A stretch of DNA of 64,000 nucleotides from a virus (taxonomy: Duplodnaviria > Heunggongvirae > Uroviricota > Caudoviricetes). The position numbers and the translations under genes are program-made. The DNA lies in the IMG/VR virus record IMGVR_UViG_3300044295_000306; one strand, 5' to 3'. This document shows, in pieces, positions 10,786-29,146 of this stretch (the first letter of the stretch is position 1; every line of letters starts with the position of its first letter). The notes beneath the pieces were generated by a model, which saw nothing but the letters and a program-made list of their open reading frames with translations, had not been told where the DNA came from and searched no databases.

Positions 10786-10794
10786 ATTGTCTGA

Positions 10795-11349: not shown

Positions 11350-11425
11350 CGCTCTCACGGGGATTCGAACCCACGCTTTCTGCCTTGAAAGGGCAGCGTC
11401 CTCAATACCAATAGACGATGAGAGC
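11347..11425 (-). tRNA. tRNA-Glu(UUC)
   Basis: acceptor GCUCUCA/UGAGAGC, anticodon stem CUGCC/GGCAG loop CUUUCAA, T-loop UUCGAAU, G73, CCA. Confidence 0.55.
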
Positions 11426-15887: not shown

Positions 15888-16461
15888 CTACCTCCTCCTT
15901 ACCATAAAGTAACATCATTACATCATATGCACAATCATGTACCGGATCATGTTTATATACCACCGACCTATCAAACCCTTCAATATCACAATACCCATCC
16001 GCACGATTATACATCAAGTCTACCGCAGTCCTTACATCACGCCACCTATTGTAATTAAATATAGTCTCCAAACCAATACTCTTCTGTAAATCATCAAATA
16101 CTATCTGATCCAAATTACCCCTAGCCCATACATAATAATTACCTTCCTTCCTCTCCTCCACCCATTCCTTAAACCTATAATACGCATCCTCAACCTTCAT
16201 ATCACCATCCTGAGGTATAAATGACTTCCTCTTAACCAAATCACATTGCTTATCCCACCAATCCACCGTTCCTCTATCAATATACCTATTCAATCTCTTC
16301 CTCTGATCTAATACATCCAACTTTATAAAAAAAGCAGATGAATATAACTCAGCATAATTATATACCTTACCACTCTCAAAGTATATACACGCCCATGATA
16401 ATATTACAGAATCCGATCTTGTACCTAATGTCTCAATATCAAAAATAAACATCTTAATCAC
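15874..16461 (-). CDS. DEDDh-family 3'-5' exonuclease (DexA-like)
   Basis: Exo I motif FIFDIETLG and Exo III motif HDCAYDVMML. Confidence 0.65.
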   Translation of the reverse strand: MIKMFIFDIETLGTRSDSVILSWACIYFESGKVYNYAELYSSAFFIKLDVLDQRKRLNRYIDRGTVDWWDKQCDLVKRKSFIPQDGDMKVEDAYYRFKEWVEERKEGNYYVWARGNLDQIVFDDLQKSIGLETIFNYNRWRDVRTAVDLMYNRADGYCDIEGFDRSVVYKHDPVHDCAYDVMMLLYGKEEVDGSD

Positions 16462-16953
16462 CTTCCAGACCTAGACCCAGACCTAGACCCAGTCCAAGAC
16501 AAAGACCTTGTCCTCTTTAATTGCTTCATCTTAATCACCTTCCAGACCAAGACCTAGACAAATACCTAGACCTAGACCAAGACCTAGACCAAGACCCAGA
16601 CCCAGACCCAGACCCAGACCCAGACCAAGACCTAGACCCAGACCCAGACCCAGACCCAGACCAAGACCTAGACAAAGACCTAGACCAAGACAAAAATCTT
16701 GTTCTCTTTAATTGCTTCATCTTAATCACCTTCCAGACCCAGACCTAGACCAAGACCAAGACCTAGACCAAGACCAATACCTAGACCCAGACCCAGACCT
16801 AGACCAAGACCCAGACCTAGACAAAGACCTAGACAAAGACCTAGACAAAGACCTAGCCAAAGACCTAGACCAAGACCTAGACCCAGACCAAGACCCAGAC
16901 AAAGACCTAGACAAAGACAAAGACAAAAATCTTGTTCTCTTTAATTGCTTCAT
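16462..16953 (-). repeat. tandem AGACC(N) hexanucleotide minisatellite in three higher-order units, each carrying a small SR/SG-repeat ORF
   Basis: units begin GGAAGGTGATTAAGATGAAGCAATTAAAGAG (SD + ATG, MKQLKRTR...) followed by (GGTCT)n-like runs; minus-strand ORFs of 23, 64 and 75 aa (16462-16537, 16535-16729, 16726-16953). Confidence 0.5.
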
Positions 16954-17243
16954 TACTTCAAAATACCAAACGATTCAATCGCCCCAATACTTACATACCA
17001 ATCATTGGGCAACTTCTGTGCATCCTGCCATCCCTTACTATCAAATGATCCAGTCTCATACACAATAGCCGCATCACTCAATAATACACACCTCTCATTC
17101 ACACCAACCAACTTGCCAGTATAAATGTAATTAGCACAAAACAATGTAACTCTCTCTCCCATCAACTTCTCCAAACCCTCACCACTAACTTCTTCAACTA
17201 GCTTTTTCATTTTTACTTCTCCTTTTAGCATGCCATGCGGCAA
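16953..17243 (-). CDS. hypothetical protein
   Basis: 96-aa ORF with AAGGAG SD upstream of internal MKKL start. Confidence 0.4.
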   Translation of the reverse strand: MPHGMLKGEVKMKKLVEEVSGEGLEKLMGERVTLFCANYIYTGKLVGVNERCVLLSDAAIVYETGSFDSKGWQDAQKLPNDWYVSIGAIESFGILK

Positions 17244-17262
17244 ATAAAATTACTACACATAA

Positions 17263-17291
17263 ATTCTAACATTATTAACATATTTTGTCAA
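17263..17291 (-). promoter_or_regulatory. sigma70-like promoter (TTGACA-17-TAGAAT)
   Basis: RC TTGACAAAATATGTTAATAATGTTAGAAT. Confidence 0.45.
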
Positions 17292-17306
17292 GAAATAACC
17301 ATACAA

Positions 17307-17373
17307 TTTTTTGGCCGGAAAATTTCCAAAAACCAAAATACCAGTTTTTTGGCCGGAAAAATTTCCAAAAACC
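17307..17373. repeat. two direct copies of a ~28-bp element TTTTTTGGCCGGAAAA(A)TTTCCAAAAACC with nested inverted repeats
   Basis: copies at 17307-17334 and 17345-17373. Confidence 0.5.
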
Positions 17374-17496
17374 GATATTCCTCAAAACTAGCCCCACGTG
17401 GAGCCCTCAACCCGGTTCCTATTTTGAATTTCCAAAATAAGAACTATACGGATTCTAAAAATTATTATCTAATTCATTTGTTATGCCTTTGTTTAA

Positions 17497-17538
17497 TCAG
17501 TATGGAAGTATTACATCGAATAATAGGAATTCAGTCAA
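17497..17538 (-). promoter_or_regulatory. conserved promoter/5'UTR module copy with no ORF immediately downstream
   Basis: TTGACT-17-TGTAAT then ACTTCCATACTGATTAAACAAAGG; followed only by ATG-AAT-TAG. Confidence 0.45.
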
Positions 17539-17544
17539 GCTGTA

Positions 17545-17865
17545 TTAAGGCTTCAAGGCTGTGGACAGGTTGGCTTTGTACAGGTCGGCTTCTGTCAGGT
17601 TGGCTTTGTACAGGTCGGCTTCTGTCAGGTAGGCGTCGGACAGGTCGGCTTTGAACAGGTAGGCTTCGGACATGTCGGCTTTGAACAGGTTGGCGTTGGA
17701 CAGGTTGGCGTTGGACAGGTTGGCTCCGGACAGGTTGGCTTTGAACAGGTTGGCGTAGGAAAGATTTACGTTCTCGGAAACAGCTTCCTCGACGGCTTGT
17801 TTGATCGTTTTAGCTGTTTTGGATTCAAACAGGACTTGATCGTTGATGGATTTAATTTGAATCAT
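17545..17865 (-). CDS. pentapeptide-repeat protein, family member 1
   Basis: N-terminus [29 protein letters not shown] then A(N/D)LSxA(N/D)LS repeats. Confidence 0.6.
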   Translation of the reverse strand: MIQIKSINDQVLFESKTAKTIKQAVEEAVSENVNLSYANLFKANLSGANLSNANLSNANLFKADMSEAYLFKADLSDAYLTEADLYKANLTEADLYKANLSTALKP

Positions 17866-17884
17866 CGCCGGCGCCTTTGTTTAT

Positions 17885-17926
17885 TCAGTATGGAAGTATT
17901 ATATCGAATAATCGGAATTTAGTCAA
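17885..17926 (-). promoter_or_regulatory. conserved promoter module (TTGACT-17-TATAAT + conserved 5'UTR)
   Basis: RC TTGACTAAATTCCGATTATTCGATATAATACTTCCATACTGAATAAACAAAGG...ATG. Confidence 0.55.
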
Positions 17927-17931
17927 ATTAT

Positions 17932-18363
17932 TTAAATATTCGGTATTTTATCAATCCATTCTGGTATTTCGGTCATACTGCCAAGCTTTGAGGCTACATA
18001 GCAGCGCATTACAGCCACGAGGACGGTAGGACCAAAGTTAAATCTATTAGGTTTGTTCAGGGATGCGACATATCGTTCCTTTGGGTTGGATCGATTTGTG
18101 TGCTCTATTGTAAGGCATTCAGGACTGGCCAGCATTCGATTGATGATTCGGCCGGCGGCTTCCCATTTCCGGCTGAATAGAAGGTCAGGTCCTGTAGTAT
18201 AAGAGCCGTCTAATTCGCCCTCTTCATTCAGATTAAGTCGAAAAAGGGAACCGCTCCATTTATCCACATATAATTGATTCTCTGGTATACCCTCACAACG
18301 GGCCACCAGCCAATCTAGTACACAACCTTCGGCTTGGGCCACTTCGATTTGTTTAGTATTCAT
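17932..18363 (-). CDS. DUF2591 (NinX-like) family phage protein
   Basis: N-terminal KQIEVAQAEGCVLDWLVARCEG pattern. Confidence 0.4.
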   Translation of the reverse strand: MNTKQIEVAQAEGCVLDWLVARCEGIPENQLYVDKWSGSLFRLNLNEEGELDGSYTTGPDLLFSRKWEAAGRIINRMLASPECLTIEHTNRSNPKERYVASLNKPNRFNFGPTVLVAVMRCYVASKLGSMTEIPEWIDKIPNI

Positions 18364-18393
18364 TATTGATCCTTCAGATCATGATCCTTCGGA

Positions 18394-19038
18394 TCATTGA
18401 ACAGTCCGAATTCGAATAATCTTGTTCATCTTACGACCATGGGCCACATAACCGATGACGGGGATATTTTTATCATAACATGCGCGACAATCCAAACACT
18501 TACCGCCTTGGCTCGGGGCGGTGCATACCTTTACACCTTCCGGAGTCGTCATACCCTCAGGAAGAATGGTCGATCCATGCAATCCTTTAGTGAAGGTACC
18601 GTCAATTTCATCGGAAGAGTATCGCACCATCACGTTCGGCAAAGCTTGCATCTGGCCCAGAATACCAGCAAACTTAGGGAATTTATACATACGGGTGGGC
18701 AGCCAGTGTTTGGTATTAGGAGTCTGAACCATAATCTGATACATTTTTTCGGCCAACTTGATTGAATACATATCCCCCGAATCGAACCAACGGAAATACT
18801 TTTCCTTGGCCAAAGCATTCACAAAATCCTTCACAAAGGATTCCCGTTTCCAGTCCTCCTTGTTATTGGCACGAACCTTTTTAACAGCCCCAAAATGATA
18901 CATTCCAGTGGTCGCATAGCAACCCGAACAGGCCGAAACAAGCTTACCATCCGATCCTACCGAACCCGGACAAGTTTCCAAAGCTTGAAGCGACCAGGAT
19001 TTAGTACCAAGCTTCAAGGTTTTCGAAAGATTCAGCAT
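18394..19038 (-). CDS. conserved Cys-rich phage protein (GP88-like)
   Basis: KSWSL..TCPGS..DGKLVSACSGCYATTGMY motif. Confidence 0.35.
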   Translation of the reverse strand: MLNLSKTLKLGTKSWSLQALETCPGSVGSDGKLVSACSGCYATTGMYHFGAVKKVRANNKEDWKRESFVKDFVNALAKEKYFRWFDSGDMYSIKLAEKMYQIMVQTPNTKHWLPTRMYKFPKFAGILGQMQALPNVMVRYSSDEIDGTFTKGLHGSTILPEGMTTPEGVKVCTAPSQGGKCLDCRACYDKNIPVIGYVAHGRKMNKIIRIRTVQ

Positions 19039-19055
19039 GACAGTACCTTGTTTAT

Positions 19056-19097
19056 TCAGTATGGAAGTATTATATCGAATAATCAGAATTTAGTCAA
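19056..19097 (-). promoter_or_regulatory. conserved promoter module
   Basis: TTGACT-17-TATAAT, identical 5'UTR block. Confidence 0.55.
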
Positions 19098-19771
19098 GCG
19101 ACTTTAATAAAACGATTACCAAGAAGAATTGATGCACCCGTCAGGTCGGCGCCGGACAGGTTGGCTTCGGACAGATTAGCCCCGGTCAGGTTGGCTTTGG
19201 TCAGGTTGGCTTCGAACAGATCGGCGCCGTACAGGTTGGCGTAGGACAGGTTGGCGTCGGACAGGTAGGCGTCGGACATGTCGGCTTTGAACAGGTTGGC
19301 GTTGGACAGGTTGGCGTTGGACAGGTTGGCTCCGGACAGGTTGGCTTTGAACAGGTTGGCGTTGGACAGGTTGGCGCCGGACAGGTAGGCGTCGGACAGG
19401 TTGGCGTCGCACAGGTTGGCGCCGGACAGGTTAGCGAAGGACAGGTCGGCGTCGGACAGGTTGGCTTTGGACAGGTTGGCGTTGGACAGGTTGGCGCCGG
19501 ACAGGTCGGCGTAGGACAGGTTGGCTTTGGACAGGTTGGCGTAGAACAGGTTGGCGCCGGACAGGTCGGCGAAGGACAGGTCGGCGTTGGACAGGTTGGC
19601 GTTGGACAGGTCGGCTTTGTACAGGTCGGCGTTGGACAGGTTGGCTTTGGACAGGTCGGCTTTGGACAGGTCGACCATCTTTGCAACAGCTTCCTCAACG
19701 GCTTCCTTGATCGTTTTAGCCGTTTCTGATTCAAACAGGACTTGATCGTTGATGGATTTAATTTGAATCAT
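19094..19771 (-). CDS. pentapeptide-repeat protein, family member 2
   Basis: [29 protein letters not shown] + ~35 ANLSx pentapeptides. Confidence 0.65.
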
Positions 19772-19790
19772 CGGCGGCGCCTTTGTTTAA

Positions 19791-19832
19791 TCAGTATGGA
19801 AGTATTATATCGAATAATCAGAATTTAGTCAA
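19791..19832 (-). promoter_or_regulatory. conserved promoter module
   Basis: same module. Confidence 0.55.
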
Positions 19833-20450
19833 GAGCATTGAAGCGTTGGACAGGTCGGCTTTGGACAGGTCGGCTTTGGACAGGTCGGCTTTGGACAGGT
19901 TGGCTTTGTACAGGTAGGCGTTGGACAGGTTGGCTCCGGTCAGGTCGGCTTCGGACAGGTCGGCTTTGGACAGGTTGGCTTTGTACAGGTAGGCGTTGGA
20001 CAGGTTGGCTTCGGACAGGAACGCTCCGGTCAGGTCGGCTTCGGACAGGTCGGCTTTGGACAGGTTGGCGTCGGACAGGTCGGCTTCGGTCAGGTCGGCT
20101 TCGGACAGGTTGGCGTCGGATAGATCGGCTTTGGACAGGTTGGCGTCGGACAGGTCGGCTTCGGACAGGTCGGCTTCGGACAGGTTGGCGTCGGATAGAT
20201 CGGCTTTATACAGATTAACTTTGGACAGATCAGCCCCGGCCAGATTAGTCCCGGACAGATTAGCTTTGGATAGATTAGCTTTGTACAGATAAGCCCCGGC
20301 CAGATTAGCTTTAGAAAGATCAACCCTGGACAGATCAGCCCTGAACAGGTTTACCTTTAATTTAACGGCTTCCTCGACGGCTTTCTTGATCGTTTTAGCC
20401 GTTTCTGATTCAAACAGGACTTGATCGTTGATGGATTTAATTTGAATCAT
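19818..20450 (-). CDS. pentapeptide-repeat protein, family member 3
   Basis: conserved N-terminus + ADLSx repeats. Confidence 0.65.
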
Positions 20451-20468
20451 TTGTTATACTTTGTTTAA

Positions 20469-20510
20469 TCAGTATGGAAGTATTATATCGAATAATCAGA
20501 ATTTTGTCAA
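20469..20510 (-). promoter_or_regulatory. conserved promoter module
   Basis: TTGACA-17-TATAAT. Confidence 0.55.
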
Positions 20511-20553
20511 GCGGCTGGTTCACGCCGCCGAAGCGGCTTTAATCTAGGCTAGC

Positions 20554-20949
20554 CTACCGGTAGGCTTCGGACAGGTTGGCTTCGGACAGATCAGCGCCGG
20601 TCAGGTTAGCGCCGTACAGGTCGGCTCCGGTCAGGGTCGCTTTGTACAGGTTGGCTTTGGACAGGTTGGCGTAGGACAGGTTTGCTTTGGACAGGTTGGC
20701 GTAGGACAGATCGGCGTCGGTCAGGTCGGCGTAGGTCAGATCGGCGTTGGTCAGGTTGGCGTCGGACAGGTTGGCGTTGATCAGGTCGGCGTTGATCAGG
20801 TAGGCTTTGGACAGGTTAGCGCCGTACAGGTTGGCGTAGGACAGGCCGACCATCTTTGCAATAGCTTCCTCAACGGCTTCCTTGATCGTTTTAGCCGTTT
20901 CTAATTCAAACAGGACTTGATCGTTGATGGATTTAATTTGAATCATCTT
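20554..20949 (-). CDS. pentapeptide-repeat protein, family member 4 (start placed at conserved MIQIKS; track ORF extends to 21102)
   Basis: conserved N-terminus [29 protein letters not shown] + repeats; promoter module at 20967-21008. Confidence 0.55.
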
Positions 20950-21004
20950 CCAGCGCCTTTGTTTATTCAGTATGGAGATATTATAGTGAATATTCGGTAT
21001 TTTG

Positions 21005-21379
21005 TCAAGCGGCTGGAAGAACCCCAGGAAATTCGCCGGCGATATAGCCGTAAGAGATTCCCAGACAGTATTCCAAATAATTATTGTCGCCCTTGGTATC
21101 ATACGCTTGATGGAGCCATTCTATAGCCATTTCACGGCTTTTGGCTCCACAGGACATAAGCTGAAGGATTCGGCGCTCAAAATCATCTTCGGCCAGAATC
21201 TGACGGCTCTGCTCTTCATTCCAGGAAGCATCAGCGGCCTTCATTAGATCATTCCAAGTGGATTGTTTTTGATCGTCCGTGGCTGTGGACCAGAAGGTCC
21301 AGAAGTCGATAGACGGACGAATTCCATATGCATCTTTGTGGAGATCGGAGACCGTATCATTGCAATAGGTATAGATCAT
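21005..21379 (-). CDS. hypothetical protein
   Basis: 124-aa ORF, promoter module at 21409-21440. Confidence 0.4.
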
Positions 21380-21546
21380 TTGGATATATTCTTGTTTATT
21401 CAGTATGGAAGTATTATATCGAATATTCGGTATTTTGTCAAATGGTATATTATACAGAAAGAGGAGGGTTTAGCCCCCTGGCGGGTAGGGGTTAGGATTT
21501 TCAGGTGGATTAGGGACGAGTTCTAAAGGTGGCTAGTGTCATTTTA

Positions 21547-22380
21547 TCAACCGCAAATTGTATATTCAGCCAGGTTTTTCCAGTTGCTACCACCACCCTT
21601 ACGGATGATAGTAACCTGAATGAGAGTCCGTAGTGTTAATTCCTTTACTTTGTCTGCTAAGGATTCGATCAGGTCGATAGCATCTTGTTTATATTGTTGT
21701 TTATATTCTTGCATAAAATCATCTTGGGAGAGCAGGAATCGCATTCTATCGATTTTCTGTTGGCGCGTCATAGAAAGATCAACGGCCATGGAGCGGGAGA
21801 TGATGGCTTGATCCATTTGAATGGATGAAAGATTGGAAATGAAGATTACACGACCACGGAATTCAAAGCTAGTCGGCAAATCCTCATCGCGGATATCGGC
21901 TCTCCAGGAGATAATACGGCGACTGTAAGAATCCAGCGCGGCTTTAAGTAGATTAAGGGACACTGGATCCTTCAGAACGGAATCGCAATCATCGAAAACG
22001 ATGACGCCATTTTGATTCTCATACAAGGTCCTGTAGAGACCTTTAGGCGTAGAATAGCCTTTAACTACGATGAAGGACTTTTTTGTACTCAGGGAAGATC
22101 CGACTTCAAAGGATGCGAGGTCGGAATAATCTTGCATGCCACAGGATTGGAGGGCTTTTAAGACGTTAAAGGTTTTGCCGAGGCCGCCCGGGCCGGTGAT
22201 TACGACTGAGGATTGGTCGCCTTTACAGAGGAGTTGGACCATATCTTGGACAAAGCCGAATCGTTCATTGATGGTGAATCTGGAGGAGGGAACGGTTTCA
22301 AGCGCAGGCGTTTGGTTAGTAACGCGGTTCATGTAGTTTTTGGTTTTGCGAAAGCCGTTCTTGGGTACGCCGCGGGGCAT
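21547..22380 (-). CDS. P-loop ATPase (AAA-like)
   Basis: Walker A GPGGLGKT, Walker B IVFDDCDS. Confidence 0.55.
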   Translation of the reverse strand: MPRGVPKNGFRKTKNYMNRVTNQTPALETVPSSRFTINERFGFVQDMVQLLCKGDQSSVVITGPGGLGKTFNVLKALQSCGMQDYSDLASFEVGSSLSTKKSFIVVKGYSTPKGLYRTLYENQNGVIVFDDCDSVLKDPVSLNLLKAALDSYSRRIISWRADIRDEDLPTSFEFRGRVIFISNLSSIQMDQAIISRSMAVDLSMTRQQKIDRMRFLLSQDDFMQEYKQQYKQDAIDLIESLADKVKELTLRTLIQVTIIRKGGGSNWKNLAEYTICG

Positions 22381-22399
22381 GGATTACTCCGTTAATCAA

Positions 22400-22441
22400 T
22401 CAGTATGGAAGTATTATATCGAATAATCGGTATTTTGTCAA
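22400..22441 (-). promoter_or_regulatory. conserved promoter module
   Basis: TTGACA-17-TATAAT. Confidence 0.55.
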
Positions 22442-22653
22442 AGGTAGTTTACGGCGATATCATATGCAGGAAGTTTAATGCCGTAATTATCAAACAAGGA
22501 AACAATTTCCTTGAAATATTGATCTTGAAAAAGTTTGGCGGTTTTAATATCGTTCTTTTTAAACATTGCGTCGATCATTTCGCATGAGACCATGATTGAA
22601 TTGATACGGCTAGCCAGATCGCGTTGGACTTTTTTCGAGAGTTTGGCGGTCAT
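22438..22653 (-). CDS. hypothetical protein
   Basis: 71-aa ORF; module at 22674-22715. Confidence 0.35.
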   Translation of the reverse strand: MTAKLSKKVQRDLASRINSIMVSCEMIDAMFKKNDIKTAKLFQDQYFKEIVSLFDNYGIKLPAYDIAVNYL

Positions 22654-22952
22654 ATTTGGCTTTCCTTGTTTATTCAGTATGGAAGTATTATATCGAATAA
22701 TCGGAATTTAGTCAAGTGTTTGATTGGTGGGTGGTGCGGAGGAGGGAGATATTAGGTGCGATGAAGTCTAAATTGGAGAGGTCGATATTGGCTTGTTTGG
22801 CTTGGATGAGGGTTTCTTTACAGGATTTGGCGGTGGTGGATTGGAAGAGGACTTTATTGGTGGATGAAATGATTTGGAAGATCATTAGGAAGTCCTTTAT
22901 ATATTCAATATAGGGTCATTATATCGAATAATCGGTATTTTGTCAAATGATA

Positions 22953-23333
22953 TTACGGTATGTTAGTACCAGATAAATCAGCATCGGTTAGATCGGCACC
23001 CCAGAGATTTGCTTCTAACAGGTTTGCCTCTTTCAGGTCGGCTTGACACAAATTCGCAAAAGATAGACTGGAAAATGCTAGATTAGCGCGCCAAAGGGTA
23101 GCACCCTTAAGATATGCATATTTAAGATCGGCGCCTTTGAGATTGGCACCTTTCATGTATGCACAATAGAATAGACCATCTTGGAGATTAGCGCCAGCTA
23201 GATCAGCCCCGCCCAAATCGATTTCTGCCAAATTAATATTCAGTTTAACGGCTTCCTCGACGGCTTGTTTGATTGTTTTAGCTGTTTTAGATTCAAACAA
23301 TACTTGACCGGTAATGGATTTGATTTGGATCAT
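22953..23333 (-). CDS. pentapeptide-repeat protein, family member 5
   Basis: MIQIKSITGQVLFESKTAKTIKQAVEEAV + A(D/N)L(K/S)GA repeats; module at 23351-23392. Confidence 0.6.
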   Translation of the reverse strand: MIQIKSITGQVLFESKTAKTIKQAVEEAVKLNINLAEIDLGGADLAGANLQDGLFYCAYMKGANLKGADLKYAYLKGATLWRANLAFSSLSFANLCQADLKEANLLEANLWGADLTDADLSGTNIP

Positions 23334-23392
23334 TTGTTATACTTTCTTTATCAGTATGGAAGTATTATATCGAATAATAGGTATTTTGTCAA

Positions 23393-23641
23393 TCAATTTT
23401 CGTGAACAGTCCCGAGGTATTTGTTGAGGATCTGTGCATCTTCTTCGGGGCGGCTCTTGACTTTCAATGAAGTGCTTTCACCGTAGCAAACATAACGGTT
23501 ATCTTCAATGAAACAGAATCCAGCGCCAATTACTTTGCCACCAATCACTTGGGCCATTTCTGAATGATTGATATAATCGCTGAATACGATACCAACCGTT
23601 ACAGTTTGGTCCAAAATGACATACTTGCTACGATAAGACAT
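23393..23641 (-). CDS. hypothetical protein
   Basis: 82-aa ORF; variant module (TTGACG) at 23663-23704. Confidence 0.35.
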   Translation of the reverse strand: MSYRSKYVILDQTVTVGIVFSDYINHSEMAQVIGGKVIGAGFCFIEDNRYVCYGESTSLKVKSRPEEDAQILNKYLGTVHEN

Positions 23642-23870
23642 GACTTGTTCACGCTTCTGTTGTTCAGTATAAGAATATTATATTAGGATTAGGATTTTTC
23701 GTCAAGCGTTTTTTGAAGAATGATAAGCCTGGTATTGATGACAGAGAGTCCATATATAATGGTACTGTAGCCCAAAATCTTGTATAACGTAACATCCAAC
23801 GTCATCAAATAGCTTACCACAAGGGCAATGGCCAAGCCTTCAAGATTATCCACACTAAAGAATTTCATGA

Positions 23871-24251
23871 TTAACCTGCAACCTTTAAAAGGGCATCCAA
23901 TACTTCAAGCTGAGAACCACTCAGCATCGGGACTGGCCCGGGCGCTGCAGGAAGATCAAGATAAGAATACCGAGACCGGATATATACATACAGGTTATCC
24001 ACAATATCTTTACTTTCTTTGATCATAAAGCCGGTATTTTCACGAAGAATCTTAATGGCACTAACCTTATTACCATTCTTGATTTCGCTAACAACCCTGT
24101 AAAGATATTCTTCTGACTTTTTCGGTTTATTGGTCAGATTGATAAAAGTTTCTGGATCTTCTTTGGCCAGGCGAACAATCATCGCTCGAAAGTCCAGGTC
24201 GGAATTCATGAGCAGATCGATGGCTTGTTTATAATACATATCTTTGGTCAT
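23871..24251 (-). CDS. small protein with ribosomal bL12 (L7/L12) C-terminal-domain-like motif, paralog A
   Basis: KVSAIKILRENTGFMIKESKDIVDNL resembles bL12 CTD [23 protein letters not shown]; module at 24269-24311. Confidence 0.45.
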   Translation of the reverse strand: MTKDMYYKQAIDLLMNSDLDFRAMIVRLAKEDPETFINLTNKPKKSEEYLYRVVSEIKNGNKVSAIKILRENTGFMIKESKDIVDNLYVYIRSRYSYLDLPAAPGPVPMLSGSQLEVLDALLKVAG

Positions 24252-24317
24252 TTGAAAATCCTTGTTTATTCAGTATGGAAGTATTATATCGAATAATGGA
24301 TATTATGTCAAGCGGTA

Positions 24318-24509
24318 TTATTCGCCCCAATCATCCTTTTCGCCATCTTTTTCGCGGTATAAATCAAGGCGATATGAGCGAACTGGCGACAGAAAAACTA
24401 TTTTATTACAACAACTTACACGGACTTTGACAGTGCGATCATATGTATCGGTATTAATTAGAGCCACCTCAGGCACTTTTGCAATACGATTACAATTTGG
24501 GCATTTCAT
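24318..24509 (-). CDS. small zinc-ribbon protein
   Basis: CPNC...CC pairs; module at 24527-24569. Confidence 0.4.
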   Translation of the reverse strand: MKCPNCNRIAKVPEVALINTDTYDRTVKVRVSCCNKIVFLSPVRSYRLDLYREKDGEKDDWGE

Positions 24510-24574
24510 GTTTTATTATCCTGCTATTCAGTAGCAGTTAATTATAGTGAATAATAGGTATTTTGTCAACTAAT

Positions 24575-24886
24575 TTACATAGACCAATAGGTCTCGGATG
24601 ACGGATCGCAGCAAATAGGAGTATCCGTTGCAATTTGAATCTTTTTGCCTGACATTAAGTTGGTGACAGTCTTATAAGTTGGAAAGTATTCAAAAGAATA
24701 ACCATCCACAGACTTATAATGCCGTCTGAGCTTTCGGACTTCCCGTTTCATATCGGTTTTATCATGTTTATCATACTGAAATGAACAGATAAACCGTTTA
24801 CCGATCTTATTCGGACTGCCATACTTAGCCCCACGGGTAAGACGTTTATCTTTCTTATACAGTCGTAAGGTATAGGAATGTTTCAT
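24575..24886 (-). CDS. hypothetical basic protein
   Basis: 103-aa ORF; module at 24898-24940. Confidence 0.4.
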   Translation of the reverse strand: MKHSYTLRLYKKDKRLTRGAKYGSPNKIGKRFICSFQYDKHDKTDMKREVRKLRRHYKSVDGYSFEYFPTYKTVTNLMSGKKIQIATDTPICCDPSSETYWSM

Positions 24887-24937
24887 TGTTATTTCCTAAT
24901 CAATATGGAAACAGTATACCAAATAATAGGAATTTTG

Positions 24938-25303
24938 TCAACCGATTAGTTTATTATAGATATCTCTATTAAGTCCTTCGAGTTTTTTAACTTTCAATCT
25001 TTCAGGACCGGGAGTCCATGATAGCTTATTTAATACATACATTCGCATGACAAGATTATCCATAATTTGTTTGGCGTCATACAAACCCAAACCTTCTTTA
25101 GCCCGAATCAATTTAACTGATTCATATAATTTACGGTTTGCGATCATGTCGCAAACTTCATCGGCATAAGATTTATGTGGATCGACAAGTTCCACAAAAG
25201 TTTCTGGATATCTTTTGGCCAATTTAATAACAATACTTTTATAATCCAAATCCTCTTGTGCTAGGATATCGATTACCTTTTTATAGGTATTAATAATTTC
25301 CAT
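24938..25303 (-). CDS. small protein with bL12 C-terminal-domain-like motif, paralog B
   Basis: LYESVKLIRAKEGLGLYDAKQIMDNL matches bL12 CTD [11 protein letters not shown] core; shares DLD(F/Y)..I(V/I)(R/K)LAK..PETF with paralog A. Confidence 0.45.
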   Translation of the reverse strand: MEIINTYKKVIDILAQEDLDYKSIVIKLAKRYPETFVELVDPHKSYADEVCDMIANRKLYESVKLIRAKEGLGLYDAKQIMDNLVMRMYVLNKLSWTPGPERLKVKKLEGLNRDIYNKLIG

Positions 25304-25420
25304 GTTGTTTATATCGATTCCTAATAGGATTTTCTTGGGATTCTAGATAGTCGGCCAGCAATCCTAGTGCGGCTAGGATGATACAAAATAGACCGACACT
25401 AAGGATTGCTTCGAGCATGA

Positions 25421-25759
25421 TTAAACTTCCGCGGTAGCACCGATACCGGCGCGCACGGTGACGGTAACAGGACCAGGTTTGCGTGAAGCTTTCTTAGCTG
25501 CAATACCGATCTTAGGTTCTTGAAGCTTTTTAATGCGAGCTTGAAGTTCCTTAATCTTGGCTTCGCGCTTTTCTTTTCGCGCTTTAGCCTTTTCGGCCTT
25601 GCTTTTTTGCAGGGCTTCCTTGGCTTCCTGTCGAGCCTTTTTAATCTGATCTTGAATAATATTAATTCGCGCGAGATTGTCCTTGACGGTTTGCCGAATC
25701 TGGCCATTCTCTTGCTGAATAAGTTTCACGGTCTTGCGAAGATCATTAACAGTAGTCAT
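25421..25759 (-). CDS. coiled-coil basic protein
   Basis: Lys/Glu/Ala heptad-like region; module at 25781-25820. Confidence 0.4.
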   Translation of the reverse strand: MTTVNDLRKTVKLIQQENGQIRQTVKDNLARINIIQDQIKKARQEAKEALQKSKAEKAKARKEKREAKIKELQARIKKLQEPKIGIAAKKASRKPGPVTVTVRAGIGATAEV

Positions 25760-25826
25760 TTTGGTAATTCCTTTTAATTAAGTGTGAAAATATTATATCG
25801 AATAATAGGTATTTTGTCAATCAATA

Positions 25827-26078
25827 TTATTTTACTTCGATTTCTTCAATACTAAAAATATAAGGACATTCAAATTCCACGATACCATTTACCTTAGTAT
25901 ATGCATCGATTTCAATTTGCTTTTGTTTTTCGGCTGCCTCGAGGGTAGAGTATATGGGTTTGAAGGACCAATCCTCACCACCGTCAATGCTTGTGCCAAT
26001 TAGCTGATAGACTTTCATCGCTTCATTCCAAAGTAGTATGGAAGTATTATAGTGAATATTCGGTATTTTGTCAATCAA
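25827..26078 (-). CDS. hypothetical protein
   Basis: 83-aa ORF; C-terminal 40 nt duplicated at 26069-26110 in a 37-codon mini-paralog. Confidence 0.35.
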   Translation of the reverse strand: MIDKIPNIHYNTSILLWNEAMKVYQLIGTSIDGGEDWSFKPIYSTLEAAEKQKQIEIDAYTKVNGIVEFECPYIFSIEEIEVK

Positions 26079-26201
26079 TATTATTTTACTTCGATTTCTT
26101 CAATACTAAACAATGCAATTGGATTCCATTTTAAAGTCAAATTTTTACAGTTTACACACACCCTGTCTTTTGGATCAGAAAAGGTCTCTTCCATACATTG
26201 A

Positions 26202-26447
26202 TTACCTATTATACCATATAATATGAGTAGCGTTATTGGGAATTTCTTTTAATCGTGAAGGTTTGATAAAAATATCAGGATCGCATTTATTATCCCTTAC
26301 TGGATGTCCGAACCCATCGCAATCCAAGAATCCCCCATTTTTACAAAATCTTTTAAATTCTTCGATAGTATAAACATCATCCTCTGTTTCTGGACCAGAG
26401 CCATAGTTACCACTTGAAGAAAAATTAACTGTTTTAGTATAAGCCAT
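26202..26447 (-). CDS. hypothetical protein
   Basis: 81-aa ORF. Confidence 0.35.
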   Translation of the reverse strand: MAYTKTVNFSSSGNYGSGPETEDDVYTIEEFKRFCKNGGFLDCDGFGHPVRDNKCDPDIFIKPSRLKEIPNNATHIIWYNR

Positions 26448-26496
26448 ACTTTATAGAGGGGTCTTTACTTTAGTGATAACGATAAAGTTTGTGTAA

Positions 26497-26715
26497 TCAC
26501 TGGTCATATCCAATACAATCGATTTGGATATGTTCTGAATCAATCAGAATATCACTAGGATCGGTATTAGGCCATTTGTTGTTAATGGCTTCTAACAGAT
26601 CGCTAAGTGACAAAATCTGTGAAGAAGGAATATATAAAGTGTTGTCGGTATCATCAGGACGAAACTGAGTAATACCACGCGAATTTTTTGAGTAGCCCAT
26701 GCTAAAGTATTCCAA
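26497..26715 (-). CDS. hypothetical protein
   Basis: 72-aa ORF. Confidence 0.35.
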   Translation of the reverse strand: MEYFSMGYSKNSRGITQFRPDDTDNTLYIPSSQILSLSDLLEAINNKWPNTDPSDILIDSEHIQIDCIGYDQ

Positions 26716-27071
26716 AACTTTTAAAAGAATAGATCAACATGAATACACCAGCGAGCCCGGGCATCACCTGAAAAATAAAGGCTGATATGAAATTTTTGGT
26801 ATTCATAAGAAAGGCAATAATGGTAAAATAGATACCAAAAACAACAAAAACATAATTAGCCACAGTTTGCATGATATTAATCCTTAAAAAGGATTCACAG
26901 GAATGATTACTTGTTTGGTATTGTCCACTCGGTCATTGAACACATAGGGCTCAAAACTTTCATTATGGAATATACCGTTGCATTCATCGTTGACCGTAAC
27001 TTCCAAATTAGGATCAAATTCTTTAAGGCAATCGATAAGTTCTTGAACGGTCATTTTCCAAACTTTCTTTA

Positions 27072-27111
27072 TCAGTATGGAAGTATTATAGTGAATATTC
27101 GGTATTTTGTC
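27072..27111 (-). promoter_or_regulatory. conserved promoter module
   Basis: TTGACA-17-TATAAT. Confidence 0.5.
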
Positions 27112-27173
27112 AAATTATTTTTTAACCAACATACCAACAGATTCTTTAGCACGATCCAGCAATTCATACAAGG

Positions 27174-27818
27174 CTAGGCGTTGGACAGATTGGCGTTGGA
27201 CAGATTGGCTTTGGACAGGTCCAAGGCGCCGGACAGGTTGGCGTTGATCAGGTCGGCGTCGGACAGGTCGGCGAAGGACAGGTAGGCGTCGGACAGGTTG
27301 GCGCCGGACAGGTCGGCGAAGGACAGGTTGGCGTAGGACAGGTTGGCGTAGGACAGGTTGGCGTAGGACAGGTTGGCGTTGGACAGGTCGGCGTCGGACA
27401 GGTAGGCGTAGGACAGGTTGGCTCCGGACAGGTTGGCGTAGGACAGGTTTGCTTTGGACAGATCGGCGACGTACAGGTTGGCGTAGGACAGGTCGGCGTT
27501 GGACAGGTTGGCGCCGGACAGGTCGGCGTAGGACAGGTTGGCTTTGGACAGGTTGGCGTAGAACAGGTTGGCGCCGGACAGGTCGGCTTCGGACAGGTCG
27601 GCTTCGGACAGGTTGGCGTCGGATAGATCGGCTTTATACAGATTAACTTTGGACAGATCAGCCCCGGCCAGATTAGTCCCGGACAGATCAACCCTGGACA
27701 GATCAGCCCTGAACAGGTTTACCTTTAATTTAACGGCTTCCTCGACGGCTTGTTTGATTGTTTTAGCTGTTTTAGATTCAAACAATACTTGACCGGTAAT
27801 GGATTTGATTTGGATCAT
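27174..27818 (-). CDS. pentapeptide-repeat protein, family member 6
   Basis: conserved N-terminus + ~37 pentapeptides; module at 27838-27878. Confidence 0.65.
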   Translation of the reverse strand: MIQIKSITGQVLFESKTAKTIKQAVEEAVKLKVNLFRADLSRVDLSGTNLAGADLSKVNLYKADLSDANLSEADLSEADLSGANLFYANLSKANLSYADLSGANLSNADLSYANLYVADLSKANLSYANLSGANLSYAYLSDADLSNANLSYANLSYANLSYANLSFADLSGANLSDAYLSFADLSDADLINANLSGALDLSKANLSNANLSNA

Positions 27819-27870
27819 TTGTTATGCCTTTGTTTAATCAGTGTAGAAGTATTATATCAAATAATGGATA

Positions 27871-28326
27871 TTATGTCAATAAACTATTGACATTAATAAA
27901 TTCACAGACTAATCCTGTATCATCATTGGTAAATGATGCATTAGGTACAACATCATCGATTAGGACATTAACTTGGTGGTCAAAATGAAATCGGCAAAAG
28001 TTTTGAAATGCTCCTGTTTTGCCACGGATTGAAACAAAATCCGTAATGCTATCAAATTGCAATCCTGTCATTAGTGTATCGGCTCGCATCATATCTTCAA
28101 CGGAGGGGCGAGCGGCGATATTGACTTTAAGGACTTTTTCTAGTGTAGATTTGAATCGGCGATCAAAATCATCTTGATCTTTTTTATTCCAGATTGCGAA
28201 TGAAAAGATATGGACTTTTTTGACGTTATTTTGTTGAAGAAACTCCCGGACAGGAGTGGTATGCAATAACATGCCATCTGCCCAGGAAGTGATTACAGTT
28301 TCTTCTAGATCGAGGAATACATTCAT
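27871..28326 (-). CDS. hypothetical protein
   Basis: 151-aa ORF; module at 28338-28378. Confidence 0.4.
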   Translation of the reverse strand: MNVFLDLEETVITSWADGMLLHTTPVREFLQQNNVKKVHIFSFAIWNKKDQDDFDRRFKSTLEKVLKVNIAARPSVEDMMRADTLMTGLQFDSITDFVSIRGKTGAFQNFCRFHFDHQVNVLIDDVVPNASFTNDDTGLVCEFINVNSLLT

Positions 28327-28382
28327 GATTATGTTCTATCAATGAATGCATTATACGATAAATTGGTTATTTTGTCAATCTA

Positions 28383-28961
28383 TTAAAAGATACAGTTTAG
28401 ACCAACGATGGTGCTAAGAACAATAAATGCCCCAGCCGTAAAAATCTTAATCTCAGCCAAGTTGCTTGAAATTTCACTCGCTGTAAGATACCGACGATTG
28501 AACAGTCCTTTAAGCACCGGTCGTGTTTCATACTTACAATCATGAAACCGTTTAGTAATCAACAACCACACTGCCATGCCAAAACCAAAGACAAGAATAA
28601 AGCTACCTACAAGGACGCCCAAGATATCCTTGCCCATGACTTTATAAACAACGATAACCGTTACAATCTTGCCTAGTTGGGTACCAGAGAATTCATTGGC
28701 TGCTACACCAACTTCCTTTGCAGCGGATACCAATGCTGTTCCGATGTTTGAACCAAGATCAGCCCAAGCGGCGGCTTCATTGCGAACCGTTGCACTTAGA
28801 TTCTCAGGACTTTTCATCTTGTCCCTTTGTGCAACAAGGGAATTGATTTGTTCTTGACTTAGTCCTCGGGTATCGATGGCTGTAGTGCCACCAAATGCAA
28901 GTCCATAAAAGCCCATCATTAGGGCAATAATAAAAAGTTTTTTCATCCGAAGAATCTCCAT
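28383..28961 (-). CDS. membrane protein
   Basis: N-terminal signal/TM plus three C-terminal hydrophobic helices. Confidence 0.45.
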   Translation of the reverse strand: MEILRMKKLFIIALMMGFYGLAFGGTTAIDTRGLSQEQINSLVAQRDKMKSPENLSATVRNEAAAWADLGSNIGTALVSAAKEVGVAANEFSGTQLGKIVTVIVVYKVMGKDILGVLVGSFILVFGFGMAVWLLITKRFHDCKYETRPVLKGLFNRRYLTASEISSNLAEIKIFTAGAFIVLSTIVGLNCIF

Positions 28962-29146
28962 GCGATAACAGCTAGGTTAAAAAACATTGCAAACATATTG
29001 ACGATTTTAGGTAAAGGGTGCTCACTTATACCAGCGACATAGGCAGTTAGAGCCACGCATAATACGTTAATGTAAGTCATAGTATGATTCATTTGTTTTT
29101 CCGTTTATTCATTATGAATGTATTATACGATAAATTGATTATTTTG

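What the first reader, a model, noticed from the sequence alone, without database searches (positions are those of the whole stretch)
17545..27818. Six-member pentapeptide-repeat protein family with a shared 29-aa N-terminal domain
The genes at 17545-17865, 19094-19771, 19818-20450, 20554-20949, 22953-23333 and 27174-27818 all begin MIQIKSI(N/T)(D/G)QVLFE(S/L)(K/E)TAKTIK(Q/E/K)AVEEA(V/I). This is followed by 10 to ~37 A(N/D)LSxA(N/D)LS pentapeptides. Pentapeptide-repeat proteins such as Qnr, MfpA and AlbG form DNA-mimicking right-handed quadrilateral beta-helices that bind gyrase. A diversified phage family of DNA mimics under early promoters suggests anti-defence or host-topoisomerase manipulation. 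Repeat number varies between paralogs, so it may be hypervariable.
Basis: partly seen in the sequence, partly recalled or inferred. Interest (0 to 1): 0.75.

Follow-up and report, generated by a model that had tools for sequence, protein, structure and literature searches.

The report
Phage early pentapeptide-repeat gene family
A T4-like environmental phage carries seven early genes for small rod-shaped pentapeptide-repeat proteins; all share one N-terminal cap, and their repeat arrays change length and swap pieces between near-identical phage strains, which suggests, without proving, a fast-evolving host-takeover or anti-defence role.

Summary
Six minus-strand genes begin with the stated 29-residue motif and continue as 14-38 A(N/D)LSx pentapeptides. 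A seventh, degenerate copy lies at 22712-22885. All six pass Pfam PF00805, and two AlphaFold models (pLDDT 97-98) give an uninterrupted right-handed beta-helix with a beta-hairpin plus helix N-cap. Each gene has its own near-consensus sigma-70 promoter inside a hyperplastic early region of a T4-like phage.

New points:
- The N-cap is not private to this phage. It heads at least 288 protein clusters elsewhere, and here it is under purifying selection.
- The arrays use the genome's rarest codons and are mosaics of one another.
- In metagenome contigs of the same phage the flanks are 100% identical, while the arrays differ by 30- and 120-nt in-frame indels and apparent hybrid genes.

The Qnr/MfpA gyrase reading is not supported as membership. 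There is no C-terminal dimerisation helix and no loops, and the sequences are closer to the cyanobacterial Np275/HetL type. Function remains inferred. An early anti-defence or host-factor decoy is most likely, given one published phage precedent and Tad3/Lar genes nearby in sister strains. This is a new variant of a known kind, of moderate interest.

The parts
17545..17865 (-). PRP gene m17545, 106 aa: N-cap plus 14 pentapeptides
   Evidence: ORF. PF00805 E 3e-22. Register. A 96-aa allele lacking 30 nt occurs in contig L038.
17898..17926 (-). sigma-70-type promoter of m17545 (TTGACT-17-TATAAT)
19094..19771 (-). PRP gene m19094, 225 aa: N-cap plus 38 pentapeptides plus a short C-terminal hairpin
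   Evidence: AF2 pLDDT 97. Foldseek to PDB PRPs E 3.5e-15. The allele in L043 lacks 120 nt.
19804..19832 (-). promoter of m19094; its -35 region encodes the last codons of m19818
19818..20450 (-). PRP gene m19818, 210 aa: N-cap plus 35 pentapeptides
   Evidence: The L029 contig spans the whole gene (locus 6824-7456, also 210 aa) and is colinear with the window with a single mismatch, which lies outside it.
20482..20510 (-). promoter of m19818 (12/12 consensus)
20554..20946 (-). PRP gene m20554, 130 aa (start corrected from 20949): N-cap plus about 19 pentapeptides
   Evidence: Called as 130 aa in L029 and L030.
20980..21008 (-). promoter of m20554 (12/12)
22712..22885 (-). seventh, degenerate member m22712, 57 aa: diverged N-cap plus about 4 decayed pentapeptides
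   Evidence: hhalign probability 93%, E 2.6e-7 to the family profile. No Pfam hit. Sequence.
22918..22946 (-). promoter of m22712 (12/12)
22953..23333 (-). PRP gene m22953, 126 aa: N-cap plus 18 non-consensus pentapeptides, phage-like codon usage (GC3 0.35)
   Evidence: AF2 pLDDT 97.9.
23364..23392 (-). promoter of m22953 (12/12)
27174..27818 (-). PRP gene m27174, 214 aa: N-cap plus 36 pentapeptides; a mosaic of m22953, m19818 and m19094 segments
   Evidence: Alleles in L040 (+30 nt), L035/L038 (hybrid) and L030 (short hybrid).
27851..27879 (-). promoter of m27174 (12/12, TG-extended)

Best explanation
The locus is a lineage-specific expansion of one phage gene cassette. The cassette reads: strong early sigma-70 promoter, short leader, 29-residue N-cap, pentapeptide array, stop. 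It lies inside a hyperplastic early region of a T4-like environmental myovirus.

Shown:
- Each product is a small (57-225 aa), acidic (pI 4.3-4.8), cytoplasmic-type protein.
- Each is predicted to fold as an uninterrupted right-handed quadrilateral beta-helix of 3.5-9.5 coils.
- Each is capped at the N-terminus by a beta-hairpin plus helix.
- None has an added C-terminal domain.

Shown at the sequence level: the arrays evolve by unequal homologous recombination and gene conversion between repeats and between paralogs. This gives in-frame gains and losses of whole pentapeptides and mosaic or hybrid genes. Meanwhile the N-cap is held by purifying selection.

Inferred: the proteins are made in quantity immediately after infection. 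They act as inert rod-shaped binders or decoys that sequester a host factor, most plausibly a DNA-recognising defence or abortive-infection sensor. This would be the way the pentapeptide-repeat protein 24_60 of Vibrio phage 24 counters the RexAB-like Sucellos system. Under this reading, array length and the outward-facing fifth residue of each pentapeptide set the binding surface. I put the structural and evolutionary part at above 0.9 and the anti-defence/host-takeover decoy function at about 0.4.
For: Fold and family:
- PF00805 in all six.
- AF2 pLDDT 97.0 and 97.9, with strands at 2-6 and 11-15, a helix at 21-30, then one strand every 5 residues.
- Foldseek E 3.5e-15 to 1e-14 to the best solved PRPs.
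- Inward positions are A (about 90%) and L (about 94%), while position 5 is highly variable.

Early expression signals:
- 14 perfect and 7 11-of-12 TTGACA-17-TATAAT sites, all on the coding strand, one before each member.

Accessory, plastic context:
- 27 related IMG/VR phages (65-74% identity in the neighbouring AAA-like gene) have no PRP within 10 kb.
- Sister strains carry a 3.1-kb insertion 1.4 kb upstream that holds Tad3 (Type I Thoeris inhibitor, E 2e-34) and a Lar-like gene.
- The layout fits the promoter-cassette shuffling described for T4-like hyperplastic regions (PMC4122927).

Recombination:
- m27174 matches m22953 at 100% over nt 1-90.
- It matches m19818 at 100% over 67 nt and at 99% over 126 nt (m27174 nt 68-134 and 131-256).
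- It matches m19094 at 100% over 93 nt (nt 232-324).
- m17545 nt 110-211 is 99% identical to m19094 nt 410-511.

Strain variation confined to arrays:
- Flanks show 0 mismatches in 1354, 1228 and 1908 nt, against 30-nt and 120-nt indels and hybrid genes in the arrays.

N-cap constraint:
- 8-11 synonymous against 2-4 non-synonymous differences between the m22953/m27174 N-cap type and m17545, m19094 and m19818 (dN/dS 0.05-0.08); m20554 gives 10.5 against 6.5, 0.09.

Precedents:
- A phage PRP acts as an anti-defence factor (bioRxiv 10.1101/2024.07.02.601686).
- The early-left PRP orf232 of phages L and ST64T lies next to the anti-restriction gene ral and differs by one 15-bp repeat between >99.9% identical phages.
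- N-capped PRPs elsewhere sit among ERF, RusA, Dam and methylase early genes of phage-like contigs.
Against: - No functional data exist for these proteins, and no homology to the Vibrio phage 24 protein could be tested.
- PADLOC found nothing.
- The hexanucleotide-repeat region at 16472-16919 is equally polymorphic between strains. Array variation may therefore reflect only the instability of tandem repeats in a highly recombinogenic phage, not selection.
- The variant alleles come from short-read assemblies, which mishandle such repeats. The L030 and L038 hybrids could be swapped assembly paths.
- Arrays built almost entirely from the genome's rarest codons (GCC, CTG, TCC, AAC) argue against long-standing selection for high expression.
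- The shortest members (3.5-4.5 coils) and the 57-aa remnant may be decaying copies.
- Net charge is modest for a DNA mimic.
Confidence: 0.42

Rival explanations
1. Qnr/MfpA/AlbG-type topoisomerase ligands. The rods mimic B-DNA, bind host gyrase or topoisomerase IV, or the phage's own type II topoisomerase. They either shut the host enzyme down or protect it from poisons such as toxin-antitoxin gyrase toxins.
For: - Same fold as Qnr, MfpA, AlbG and EfsQnr (Foldseek E 6e-9 to 5e-6).
- Acidic proteins.
- Phage-encoded gyrase inhibitors of other folds exist (PMC10886550).
- HHpred-level links of a Listeria phage early PRP to gyrase-directed PRPs have been noted (PMC12282133).
Against: - There is no C-terminal helix. 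The review describes dimers joined via C-terminal helices as typical of these solenoid folds. Four of six members stop inside the array.
- No loop interrupts the register.
- Sequence similarity to Qnr (E 3e-10) and MfpA (E 1e-6) is far weaker than to Np275/276 and HetL types (E 1e-29 to 1e-51).
- Members of 3.5-5 coils are only about 17-24 A long, too short to mimic a gyrase-bound DNA segment unless they oligomerise.
- Seven paralogs of different lengths are not expected for one conserved target.
Confidence: 0.15
2. Functionless or decaying repeat cassettes. A recently acquired or amplified 15-nt unit spreads by slippage and unequal crossing-over behind duplicated promoters. The open reading frames persist only because 15-nt units cannot break the frame.
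For: - The arrays use GCC, CTG, TCC and AAC, which are 6-12% of synonymous usage elsewhere in the genome. GC3 is 0.66-0.79.
- Stops fall at arbitrary array positions or inside the next promoter.
- A 57-aa degenerate copy exists.
- The non-PRP hexanucleotide repeat is just as variable.
- Alternative frames are also open.
Against: - The N-cap has dN/dS 0.05-0.12 with dS up to about 1.1 between its two types, so it has been kept by selection over a non-trivial time.
- Every copy keeps a consensus promoter, a ribosome-binding site and an intact cap-array junction.
- m22953 has ameliorated, phage-like codons and diverse repeats yet is still intact and folds at pLDDT 98.
- The same cap-plus-array architecture recurs in at least 288 protein clusters.
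Confidence: 0.2
3. Protein-protein adaptors for a phage or host process unrelated to defence or DNA mimicry. The model is the cyanobacterial PRP HetL, which is involved in heterocyst differentiation (function from its PDB entry title). In this reading the conserved N-cap is the docking site and the helix is a spacer of adjustable length.
For: - The closest solved relatives are Np275/276, HetL and Alr5209-type PRPs, not the DNA mimics.
- The N-cap is the only strongly conserved surface.
- Relatives fuse the same cap-array module to many different C-terminal domains, as expected of a generic scaffold.
Against: - N-terminal caps of beta-solenoids are usually needed simply to seal the hydrophobic core, so conservation need not mean docking.
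- No partner is suggested by gene context.
- Absence from 27 related phages argues against a core phage process.
Confidence: 0.2
4. The repeats are read in another frame (PTCPxPTCP on the same strand, or DRSAL/WTGRL on the opposite strand), or are non-coding.
For: Other frames are open for up to 177 aa because of the 15-nt periodicity.
Against: - Only the A(N/D)LSx frame is continuous with an ATG placed 9-10 nt after an AAGG motif and about 40 nt after a consensus promoter.
- Only this frame gives a Pfam family and a pLDDT 97-98 fold.
- All other genes of the window are on the same strand.
Confidence: 0.01

Closest known systems
Cyanobacterial consensus-type pentapeptide-repeat proteins (Np275/Np276, HetL/All3740, Alr5209) and the synthetic 'beta1' solenoids derived from them
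   Same: They are the closest by sequence (E 3e-51 to 6e-29) and by structure (Foldseek E 3.5e-15 to 3.3e-14; TM up to 0.8 for 4yfo, E 5.7e-14). They share the highly regular A(D/N)LSx repeats without loops.
   Different: Those are cellular proteins of unknown or developmental function, or designed ones. The phage proteins have a beta-hairpin plus helix N-cap, no C-terminal cap, and occur as a seven-member promoter-cassette family.
Qnr / MfpA / AlbG / EfsQnr topoisomerase-directed DNA-mimic PRPs
   Same: Right-handed quadrilateral beta-helix, acidic, about 100-225 aa.
   Different: The phage proteins have no C-terminal dimerisation helix, no Qnr loops and only weak sequence similarity (E 3e-10 to 1e-6). 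No gyrase link is known.
Vibrio phage 24 gene 24_60 (pentapeptide-repeat anti-defence factor against the RexAB-like Sucellos system; bioRxiv 10.1101/2024.07.02.601686)
   Same: It is a phage-encoded PRP with a hard-to-assemble repeat region. It is the only phage PRP found in these searches with experimental evidence of function, which is anti-defence.
   Different: It is a single gene in a Vibrio phage.
orf232 of Salmonella phages L and ST64T (P22-like early-left operon)
   Same: It is an early PRP next to the anti-restriction gene ral. Two >99.9% identical phages differ by a 15-bp in-frame loss of one pentapeptide, the same kind of polymorphism seen here.
   Different: It has a different, helical N-terminal cap and carries a C-terminal globular domain. 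It is single-copy and sits in a temperate phage.
PeSL promoter cassettes of T4-like hyperplastic regions (Arbiol 2010; Comeau 2014; PMC2839356, PMC4122927)
   Same: Conserved early-promoter repeats of about 50-70 nt flank small accessory genes in a plastic region of a T4-type genome. They provide homology for indels and shuffling.
   Different: No clear stem-loop or terminator half was detected here; terminator-like sites were 14 against 11.5 expected. In this locus the coding repeats themselves also serve as recombination substrates.

Membership tests
Pentapeptide repeat family (Pfam PF00805) | Profile match above the curated gathering score | tested here: met
   78-220 bits against a cut-off of 20.2 for all six. 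The 57-aa seventh copy has no hit.
Pentapeptide repeat family | Right-handed quadrilateral beta-helix, four pentapeptides per coil | tested here: met
   AF2 pLDDT 97.0 and 97.9 with one strand per 5 residues. Best Foldseek matches are solved PRPs. This is prediction, not experiment.
Pentapeptide repeat family | A(D/N)LXX register with small (A) and large (L/F) inward residues | tested here: met
   Position 1 is A in 31-36 of 35-38 units and position 3 is L in 33-35 of 35-38 units. Only one +1 register slip occurs, near the end of m27174.
Qnr/MfpA/AlbG topoisomerase-protecting PRPs | C-terminal alpha-helix that mediates the tail-to-tail dimer | tested here: not met
   DSSP of both models shows no C-terminal helix. 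Products end inside the array or in a short hairpin. The feature is taken from PMC10886550.
Qnr proteins | Loops A and B interrupting the helix | tested here: not met
   The 5-residue register is uninterrupted in all six.
Qnr/MfpA/AlbG topoisomerase-protecting PRPs | Closest sequence relatives are Qnr, MfpA or AlbG | tested here: not met
   Qnr E 3e-10 and MfpA E 1e-6, against Np275/276, HetL and beta1 at E 6e-29 to 3e-51.
Qnr/MfpA/AlbG topoisomerase-protecting PRPs | Binds gyrase or protects it from poisons | not testable with these tools
   Needs supercoiling or protection assays with host enzymes.
DNA-mimic proteins (Ocr, ArdA, MfpA) | Dense, phosphate-like negative surface of DNA dimensions | tested here: inconclusive
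   Net charge -3 to -10 and pI 4.3-4.8. There is no strong face bias. The short members are shorter than one DNA turn.
N-capped PRP subfamily (beta-hairpin plus helix cap, xIxIKxxxGxVLFExxxxxIKxAVEEAV) | Profile of cap plus first two repeats matches at the protein N-terminus | tested here: met
   288 50%-identity clusters at E<=1e-3, nearly all aligned from profile position 1-4 to protein residue 1-10. Alignment A3. Structure.
T4-like hyperplastic-region promoter cassettes (PeSL) | Conserved early-promoter repeat at each cassette boundary | tested here: met
   22 copies of a 49-nt element. 21 sites with at least 11 of 12 consensus matches, all on the coding strand.
T4-like hyperplastic-region promoter cassettes (PeSL) | Stem-loop or terminator joined to the promoter | tested here: inconclusive
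   Terminator-like sites are not enriched (14 against 11.5 +/- 3.5) and none lies next to the PRP promoters.
Phage anti-defence PRP (24_60 type) | Sequence homology beyond the repeats; loss of the gene sensitises the phage to a defence system | not tested
   The 24_60 sequence is not held by the tools. Only the paper's text was read.

The most novel reading that the evidence does not exclude
The seven cassettes form a recombination-driven diversity generator for an intracellular phage effector. A selected, constant N-cap is joined to beta-helix rods whose length and surface are continually reshuffled by unequal crossing-over among paralogs. This would give a phage population a standing repertoire of decoys against variable host DNA-sensing defence proteins, or let it escape defence systems that sense the decoy. 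It would be functionally analogous to antigenic variation by repeat or cassette recombination. The apparent reciprocal hybrids (L038: m27174-N/m19094-C with loss of the intervening 8 kb; L030: m19094-N/m27174-C) would then be real deletion and duplication or mini-circle products.
Probability: 0.15. Interest if true: 0.8.

Novelty: new variant of a known kind. Interest (0 to 1): 0.5.

Why it matters
Pentapeptide-repeat proteins are common in phage genomes. In the literature searched here, only one has experimental evidence of function. They are also under-represented in short-read viromes because their repeats break assemblies.

This locus offers a compact natural experiment with several useful features:
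- It has one conserved cap and seven array lengths.
- Each copy has its own strong early promoter.
- Natural alleles differ only in the arrays, against 100% identical flanks.

If the proteins are anti-defence or takeover decoys, they would show how a repeat scaffold can be tuned by recombination. They would also give a ready set of length variants for structure-function work. If they are not, the locus is still a clear example of how coding repeats and promoter repeats drive plasticity in T4-like hyperplastic regions, and of how that plasticity is lost or scrambled in metagenome assemblies.

Tried and rejected
- **Phage database DNA search.** Megablast of 17000-28500 and 36000-60500 against 50,697 phage records gave no match. 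The phage has no close cultured relative; the best protein links are T4-like Pelagibacter phages and cyanophages at about 40%.
- **Protein-index searches.** Searches with m22953 and with the 40-aa N-terminus found no close homologue. I do not read this as rarity, because JGI contigs that encode the very same proteins exist. These indexes evidently do not hold them.
- **Family alignment against viral contigs.** No confirmed locus was found.
- **Family alignment against metagenome contigs.** This returned only L028, a high-GC bacterial PRP matched through its repeats. I rejected it as irrelevant.
- **PADLOC.** No defence-system family matched.
- **Alternative-frame reading.** Rejected; see the rival explanations.
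- **Relatives hiding PRPs at contig ends.** Relaxed tblastn and a six-frame regex over 27 related loci found none.
- **Are L030 and L038 true recombinants or assembly path swaps?** L030's first 180 nt cannot be tiled by long exact window segments and carries private SNPs, which favours a real variant. The question cannot be settled without reads.
- **Face-specific charge pattern as a DNA-mimic signature.** No clear pattern emerged.

Full report
**1. What is in the sequence**

The window is a phage-like segment. It is about 33-40% GC, all long ORFs are on the minus strand, and 30 tRNA genes lie at 3210-11425. Its larger genes match phage families (PHROGs) for DNA ligase, RNA ligase, primase, class I ribonucleotide reductase, cytidylyltransferase and tail fibre. 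The nearest cultured relatives are T4-like Pelagibacter phages and cyanophages at only about 40% amino-acid identity. No phage record matches at the DNA level.

All begin with the stated motif. The fourth starts at 20946, not 20949. After residue 32 each protein runs in an unbroken five-residue register of 14, 38, 35, 19, 18 and 36 units. A occupies position 1, N or D position 2 and L position 3. Position 4 is mostly S, and position 5 is highly variable.

A seventh copy at 22712-22885 (57 aa) keeps a diverged cap and about four decayed repeats.

**2. Identity and fold**

All six hit Pfam PF00805 at 78-220 bits against a cut-off of 20.2. AlphaFold2 models of the 225-aa and 126-aa members have mean pLDDT 97.0 and 97.9. 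They show strands at 2-6 and 11-15, a helix at 21-30, then one short strand every five residues to the end. Only the 225-aa protein adds a small terminal hairpin.

Foldseek places the long model among solved pentapeptide-repeat proteins:
- The best matches are the Np275/276-derived synthetic solenoids, Np275/276 itself and HetL (E 3.5e-15 to 3.3e-14).
- QnrB1, MfpA, AlbG and EfsQnr follow (E 6e-9 to 5e-6).

By sequence the order is the same and the gap is wider: E 3e-51 to 6e-29 against 3e-10 for Qnr and 1e-6 for MfpA. The A(N/D)LSx frame is the only one continuous with an ATG, a ribosome-binding site and a promoter.

**3. The N-terminal 'domain'**

It is real but not private to this phage. 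About a quarter of the PRP hits to m22953 begin with the same pattern, xIxIKxxxGxVLFExxxxxIKxxVEEAVK (my reading of the N-termini listed; alignment A3).

A 42-column profile of cap plus two repeats finds 288 clusters (50% identity) at E<=1e-3 among 1.84 billion representatives. Almost all align at the protein's first residues. Examples include MIQIKSILGRILY..., MIQIKNRFTEKVVFESK... and MINIKNMEGKIIFTSKTAKTIKQAVEEA....

Those relatives usually carry an extra C-terminal domain of several unrelated kinds; the window's members carry none. Relatives sit in phage-like contexts among ERF, RusA, Dam, methylase and integrase genes.

Within the window the cap exists in two DNA types. Between them, the m22953/m27174 type differs from m17545, m19094 and m19818 by 8-11 synonymous and 2-4 non-synonymous changes in 29 codons (dN/dS 0.05-0.08, dS 0.6-1.2); against m20554 the counts are 10.5 and 6.5 (0.09). 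It is therefore conserved by selection and not only by recent copying. The sample is small.

**4. Expression signals and genomic setting**

A 49-nt element is repeated 22 times between 17.5 and 29.2 kb. The consensus scan finds 14 perfect and 7 11-of-12 TTGACA-17-TATAAT sites, all on the coding strand. One lies about 40 nt before each PRP start, followed by a conserved leader and an AAGG motif. Genes are packed so tightly that the last codons or stop codon of m19818 and m19094 lie inside the -35 hexamer of the next promoter.

This is the architecture described for hyperplastic regions of T4-like phages, where conserved early-promoter cassettes mediate shuffling (PMC4122927, PMC2839356). I did not find the stem-loop half of those elements.

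The region is accessory:
- 27 IMG/VR phages share the neighbouring AAA-like gene at 65-74% identity but have no PRP within 10 kb. Most of the small neighbouring genes are also absent from them.
- Sister strains of this very phage carry a 3.1-kb insertion at window 29168/29172. It encodes a Tad3 Thoeris inhibitor (Pfam E 2e-34) and a Lar-like protein.

**5. How the family evolves**

*Codon usage.* Five of the seven members have arrays written almost wholly in GCC-AAC/GAC-CTG-TCC. These codons make up only 9%, 12%/9%, 6% and 10% of synonymous usage in the rest of the genome. Array-gene GC3 is 0.66-0.79, against 0.38-0.48 for the caps and 0.17-0.50 for neighbours. m22953 is the exception, with mixed, phage-like codons and diverse repeats. 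The arrays therefore look young: amplified from a few 15-nt seeds, or grafted from a GC-richer source onto a native cap.

*Mosaic paralogs.*
- m27174 is 100% identical to m22953 over nt 1-90.
- It is 100% identical to m19818 over nt 68-134, and 99% identical over a further 126 nt.
- It is 100% identical to m19094 over 93 nt.
- m17545 shares a 102-nt block at 99% with m19094.

**6. Strain-level variation**

Exact-protein look-ups show that this phage occurs in three JGI metagenomes and several SRA runs. Short-read contigs break either inside the long arrays or exactly between promoter copies; the Logan contigs equal window 21396-22427.

Where contigs overlap the window, non-repeat flanks are identical: 0 mismatches in 1354, 1228 and 1908 nt. 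The arrays differ:
- m17545 is 106 aa in two samples and 96 aa in L038. The deletion is a clean 30 nt between direct repeats, inside a contig with unique flanks.
- The m27174 locus has +30 nt in L040.
- m19094 in L043 lacks the 120-nt block that the window shares with m17545.
- In two samples the m27174 locus carries an m27174-N/m19094-C hybrid.

L038 joins that hybrid directly to the gene downstream of m19094, omitting 8 kb. L030 from the same sample starts with the reciprocal m19094-N/m27174-C hybrid. L030's first 180 nt contain private SNPs and cannot be tiled from long window segments. This favours a real variant, but a swapped assembly path cannot be excluded.

The exact 214- and 225-aa products of the window are not on record in any contig.

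Two published observations fit this picture. Phages L and ST64T, >99.9% identical, differ by loss of one 15-bp pentapeptide in an early PRP next to ral. Pentapeptide repeats are also 26-fold under-represented in short-read viral assemblies.

One caution applies. The unrelated hexanucleotide-repeat region at 16472-16919 holds all the remaining strain differences. High repeat instability alone could therefore explain the pattern.

**7. What the proteins most likely do**

Shown or strongly predicted: they are small, acidic (net -3 to -10, pI 4.3-4.8), loop-free beta-helical rods of 3.5-9.5 coils with a selected N-cap. They lie behind strong early-type promoters in an accessory island that, in sister strains, also holds known anti-defence genes.

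Inferred: they are made early and act by binding, not catalysis. The only experimental datum found in these searches for a phage PRP is that gene 24_60 of Vibrio phage 24 counters the RexAB-like abortive-infection system Sucellos, with escape mutations mapping in the repeats.

I therefore favour a decoy or inhibitor of a host defence or other host DNA-handling factor (about 0.4). The specific Qnr/MfpA reading gets about 0.15, for four reasons:
- The C-terminal dimerisation helix is absent. A review describes dimers joined via C-terminal helices as typical of these solenoid folds.
- The Qnr loops are absent.
- Sequence affinity points elsewhere.
- Several members are too short to imitate a gyrase-bound DNA segment unless they pair end to end.

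Functionless young repeats (about 0.2) and non-defence adaptors (about 0.2) remain open.

**8. Novelty and score**

Phage PRPs are widely annotated. Phage genomes with more than one PRP gene exist: Rheinheimera Barba phages have two adjacent PRP ORFs (gp043, gp044) that look like one gene split by a stop codon, plus a third gene (gp041) made of NTGNx five-residue repeats, a different motif that the record also labels 'pentapeptide'. Microcystis phages show up to 7 matching places.

The following combination did not turn up in these literature and database searches:
- A seven-member, single-cap, promoter-cassette family in a T4-like phage.
- Arrays in rare codons.
- Inter-paralog mosaics.
- Array-restricted polymorphism between otherwise identical strains.

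I rate it a new variant of a known kind, interest 0.5. It is a good experimental lead and a cautionary case for metagenome assembly, but it has no demonstrated function.

Noticed in passing
window 16461-16953 (minus strand): There are three tandem small ORFs (about 23, 64 and 75 aa), each starting MKQLKRTR. Each is preceded by GGAAGGTGATTAAGATG, a strong Shine-Dalgarno-like motif that overlaps the previous stop. The ORFs are made of (GGTCTN)n hexanucleotide repeats that read SRSWSGSGS... It is unclear whether they are coding. All strain differences downstream of m17545 fall inside this region (16472-16919).
   Followed up: partly
window 17491-29151 (minus strand): There are 22 copies of a 49-71-nt early-promoter element (TTGACAAAATACCGAATATTCGATATAATACTTCCATACTGAATAAAC). 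Fourteen have a perfect sigma-70 consensus and a 17-nt spacer. Short-read (Logan) contigs break exactly between copies. The elements resemble the PeSL cassettes of T4-like hyperplastic regions but lack an evident stem-loop.
   Followed up: partly
window about 29168-29172; L035:2067-5154 and L036: Sister strains of the same phage carry a 3.1-kb insertion here. It encodes a Tad3 Type I Thoeris inhibitor (Pfam E 2.4e-34), a Lar-like restriction-alleviation protein (E 1e-5, just below the cut-off) and five unknown ORFs. Two of the unknown ORFs look GC-rich and foreign. The window strain lacks the insertion.
   Followed up: partly
window 3210-11425 (minus strand): A cluster of 30 tRNA genes covers most amino acids, interspersed with small ORFs.
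   Followed up: no
window 23871-24251 and 24938-25303 (minus strand): Two paralogous early proteins of about 125 aa share similar N-termini (…DLDFRAMIVRLAKEDPETF… and …DLDYKSIVIKLAKRYPETF…). The first has a weak match to the ribosomal L7/L12 C-terminal domain (E 4e-5, just below the Pfam cut-off). It may be a translation-factor-binding mimic.
   Followed up: no
window 17263-17385 (minus strand): In the 300-nt non-coding gap after m17545 there are two 36-nt direct repeats, 39 nt apart. The first contains the palindrome GGAAATTTTCC next to GGCC; the second carries a slightly imperfect copy (GGAAATTTTTCC). They sit just upstream of a TTGACA-17-TAGAAT promoter for the 16953-17243 gene and look like a possible operator pair.
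   Followed up: no
window 17932-19038 (minus strand): A NinX-like gene (PF10765) and a GP88/DUF7227 gene, Cys-rich and 214 aa, sit between two PRP genes. The GP88-like gene is conserved at 64-72% identity in 7 of 27 related phages, unlike the PRPs.
   Followed up: no
L038 (JGI 3300051165) against window 19094-27818: The contig joins the gene upstream of m27174 directly to the genes downstream of m19094 through a hybrid PRP, omitting 8 kb that includes the AAA-like gene. L030 from the same sample begins with the reciprocal hybrid. This is either a real deletion or duplication pair produced by recombination between paralogs, or an assembly path swap.
   Followed up: partly
The large protein-search indexes do not return the window's own PRPs, although JGI contigs encoding identical proteins are retrievable by exact look-up. 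'No close homologue' from those searches should therefore not be read as rarity.
   Followed up: yes
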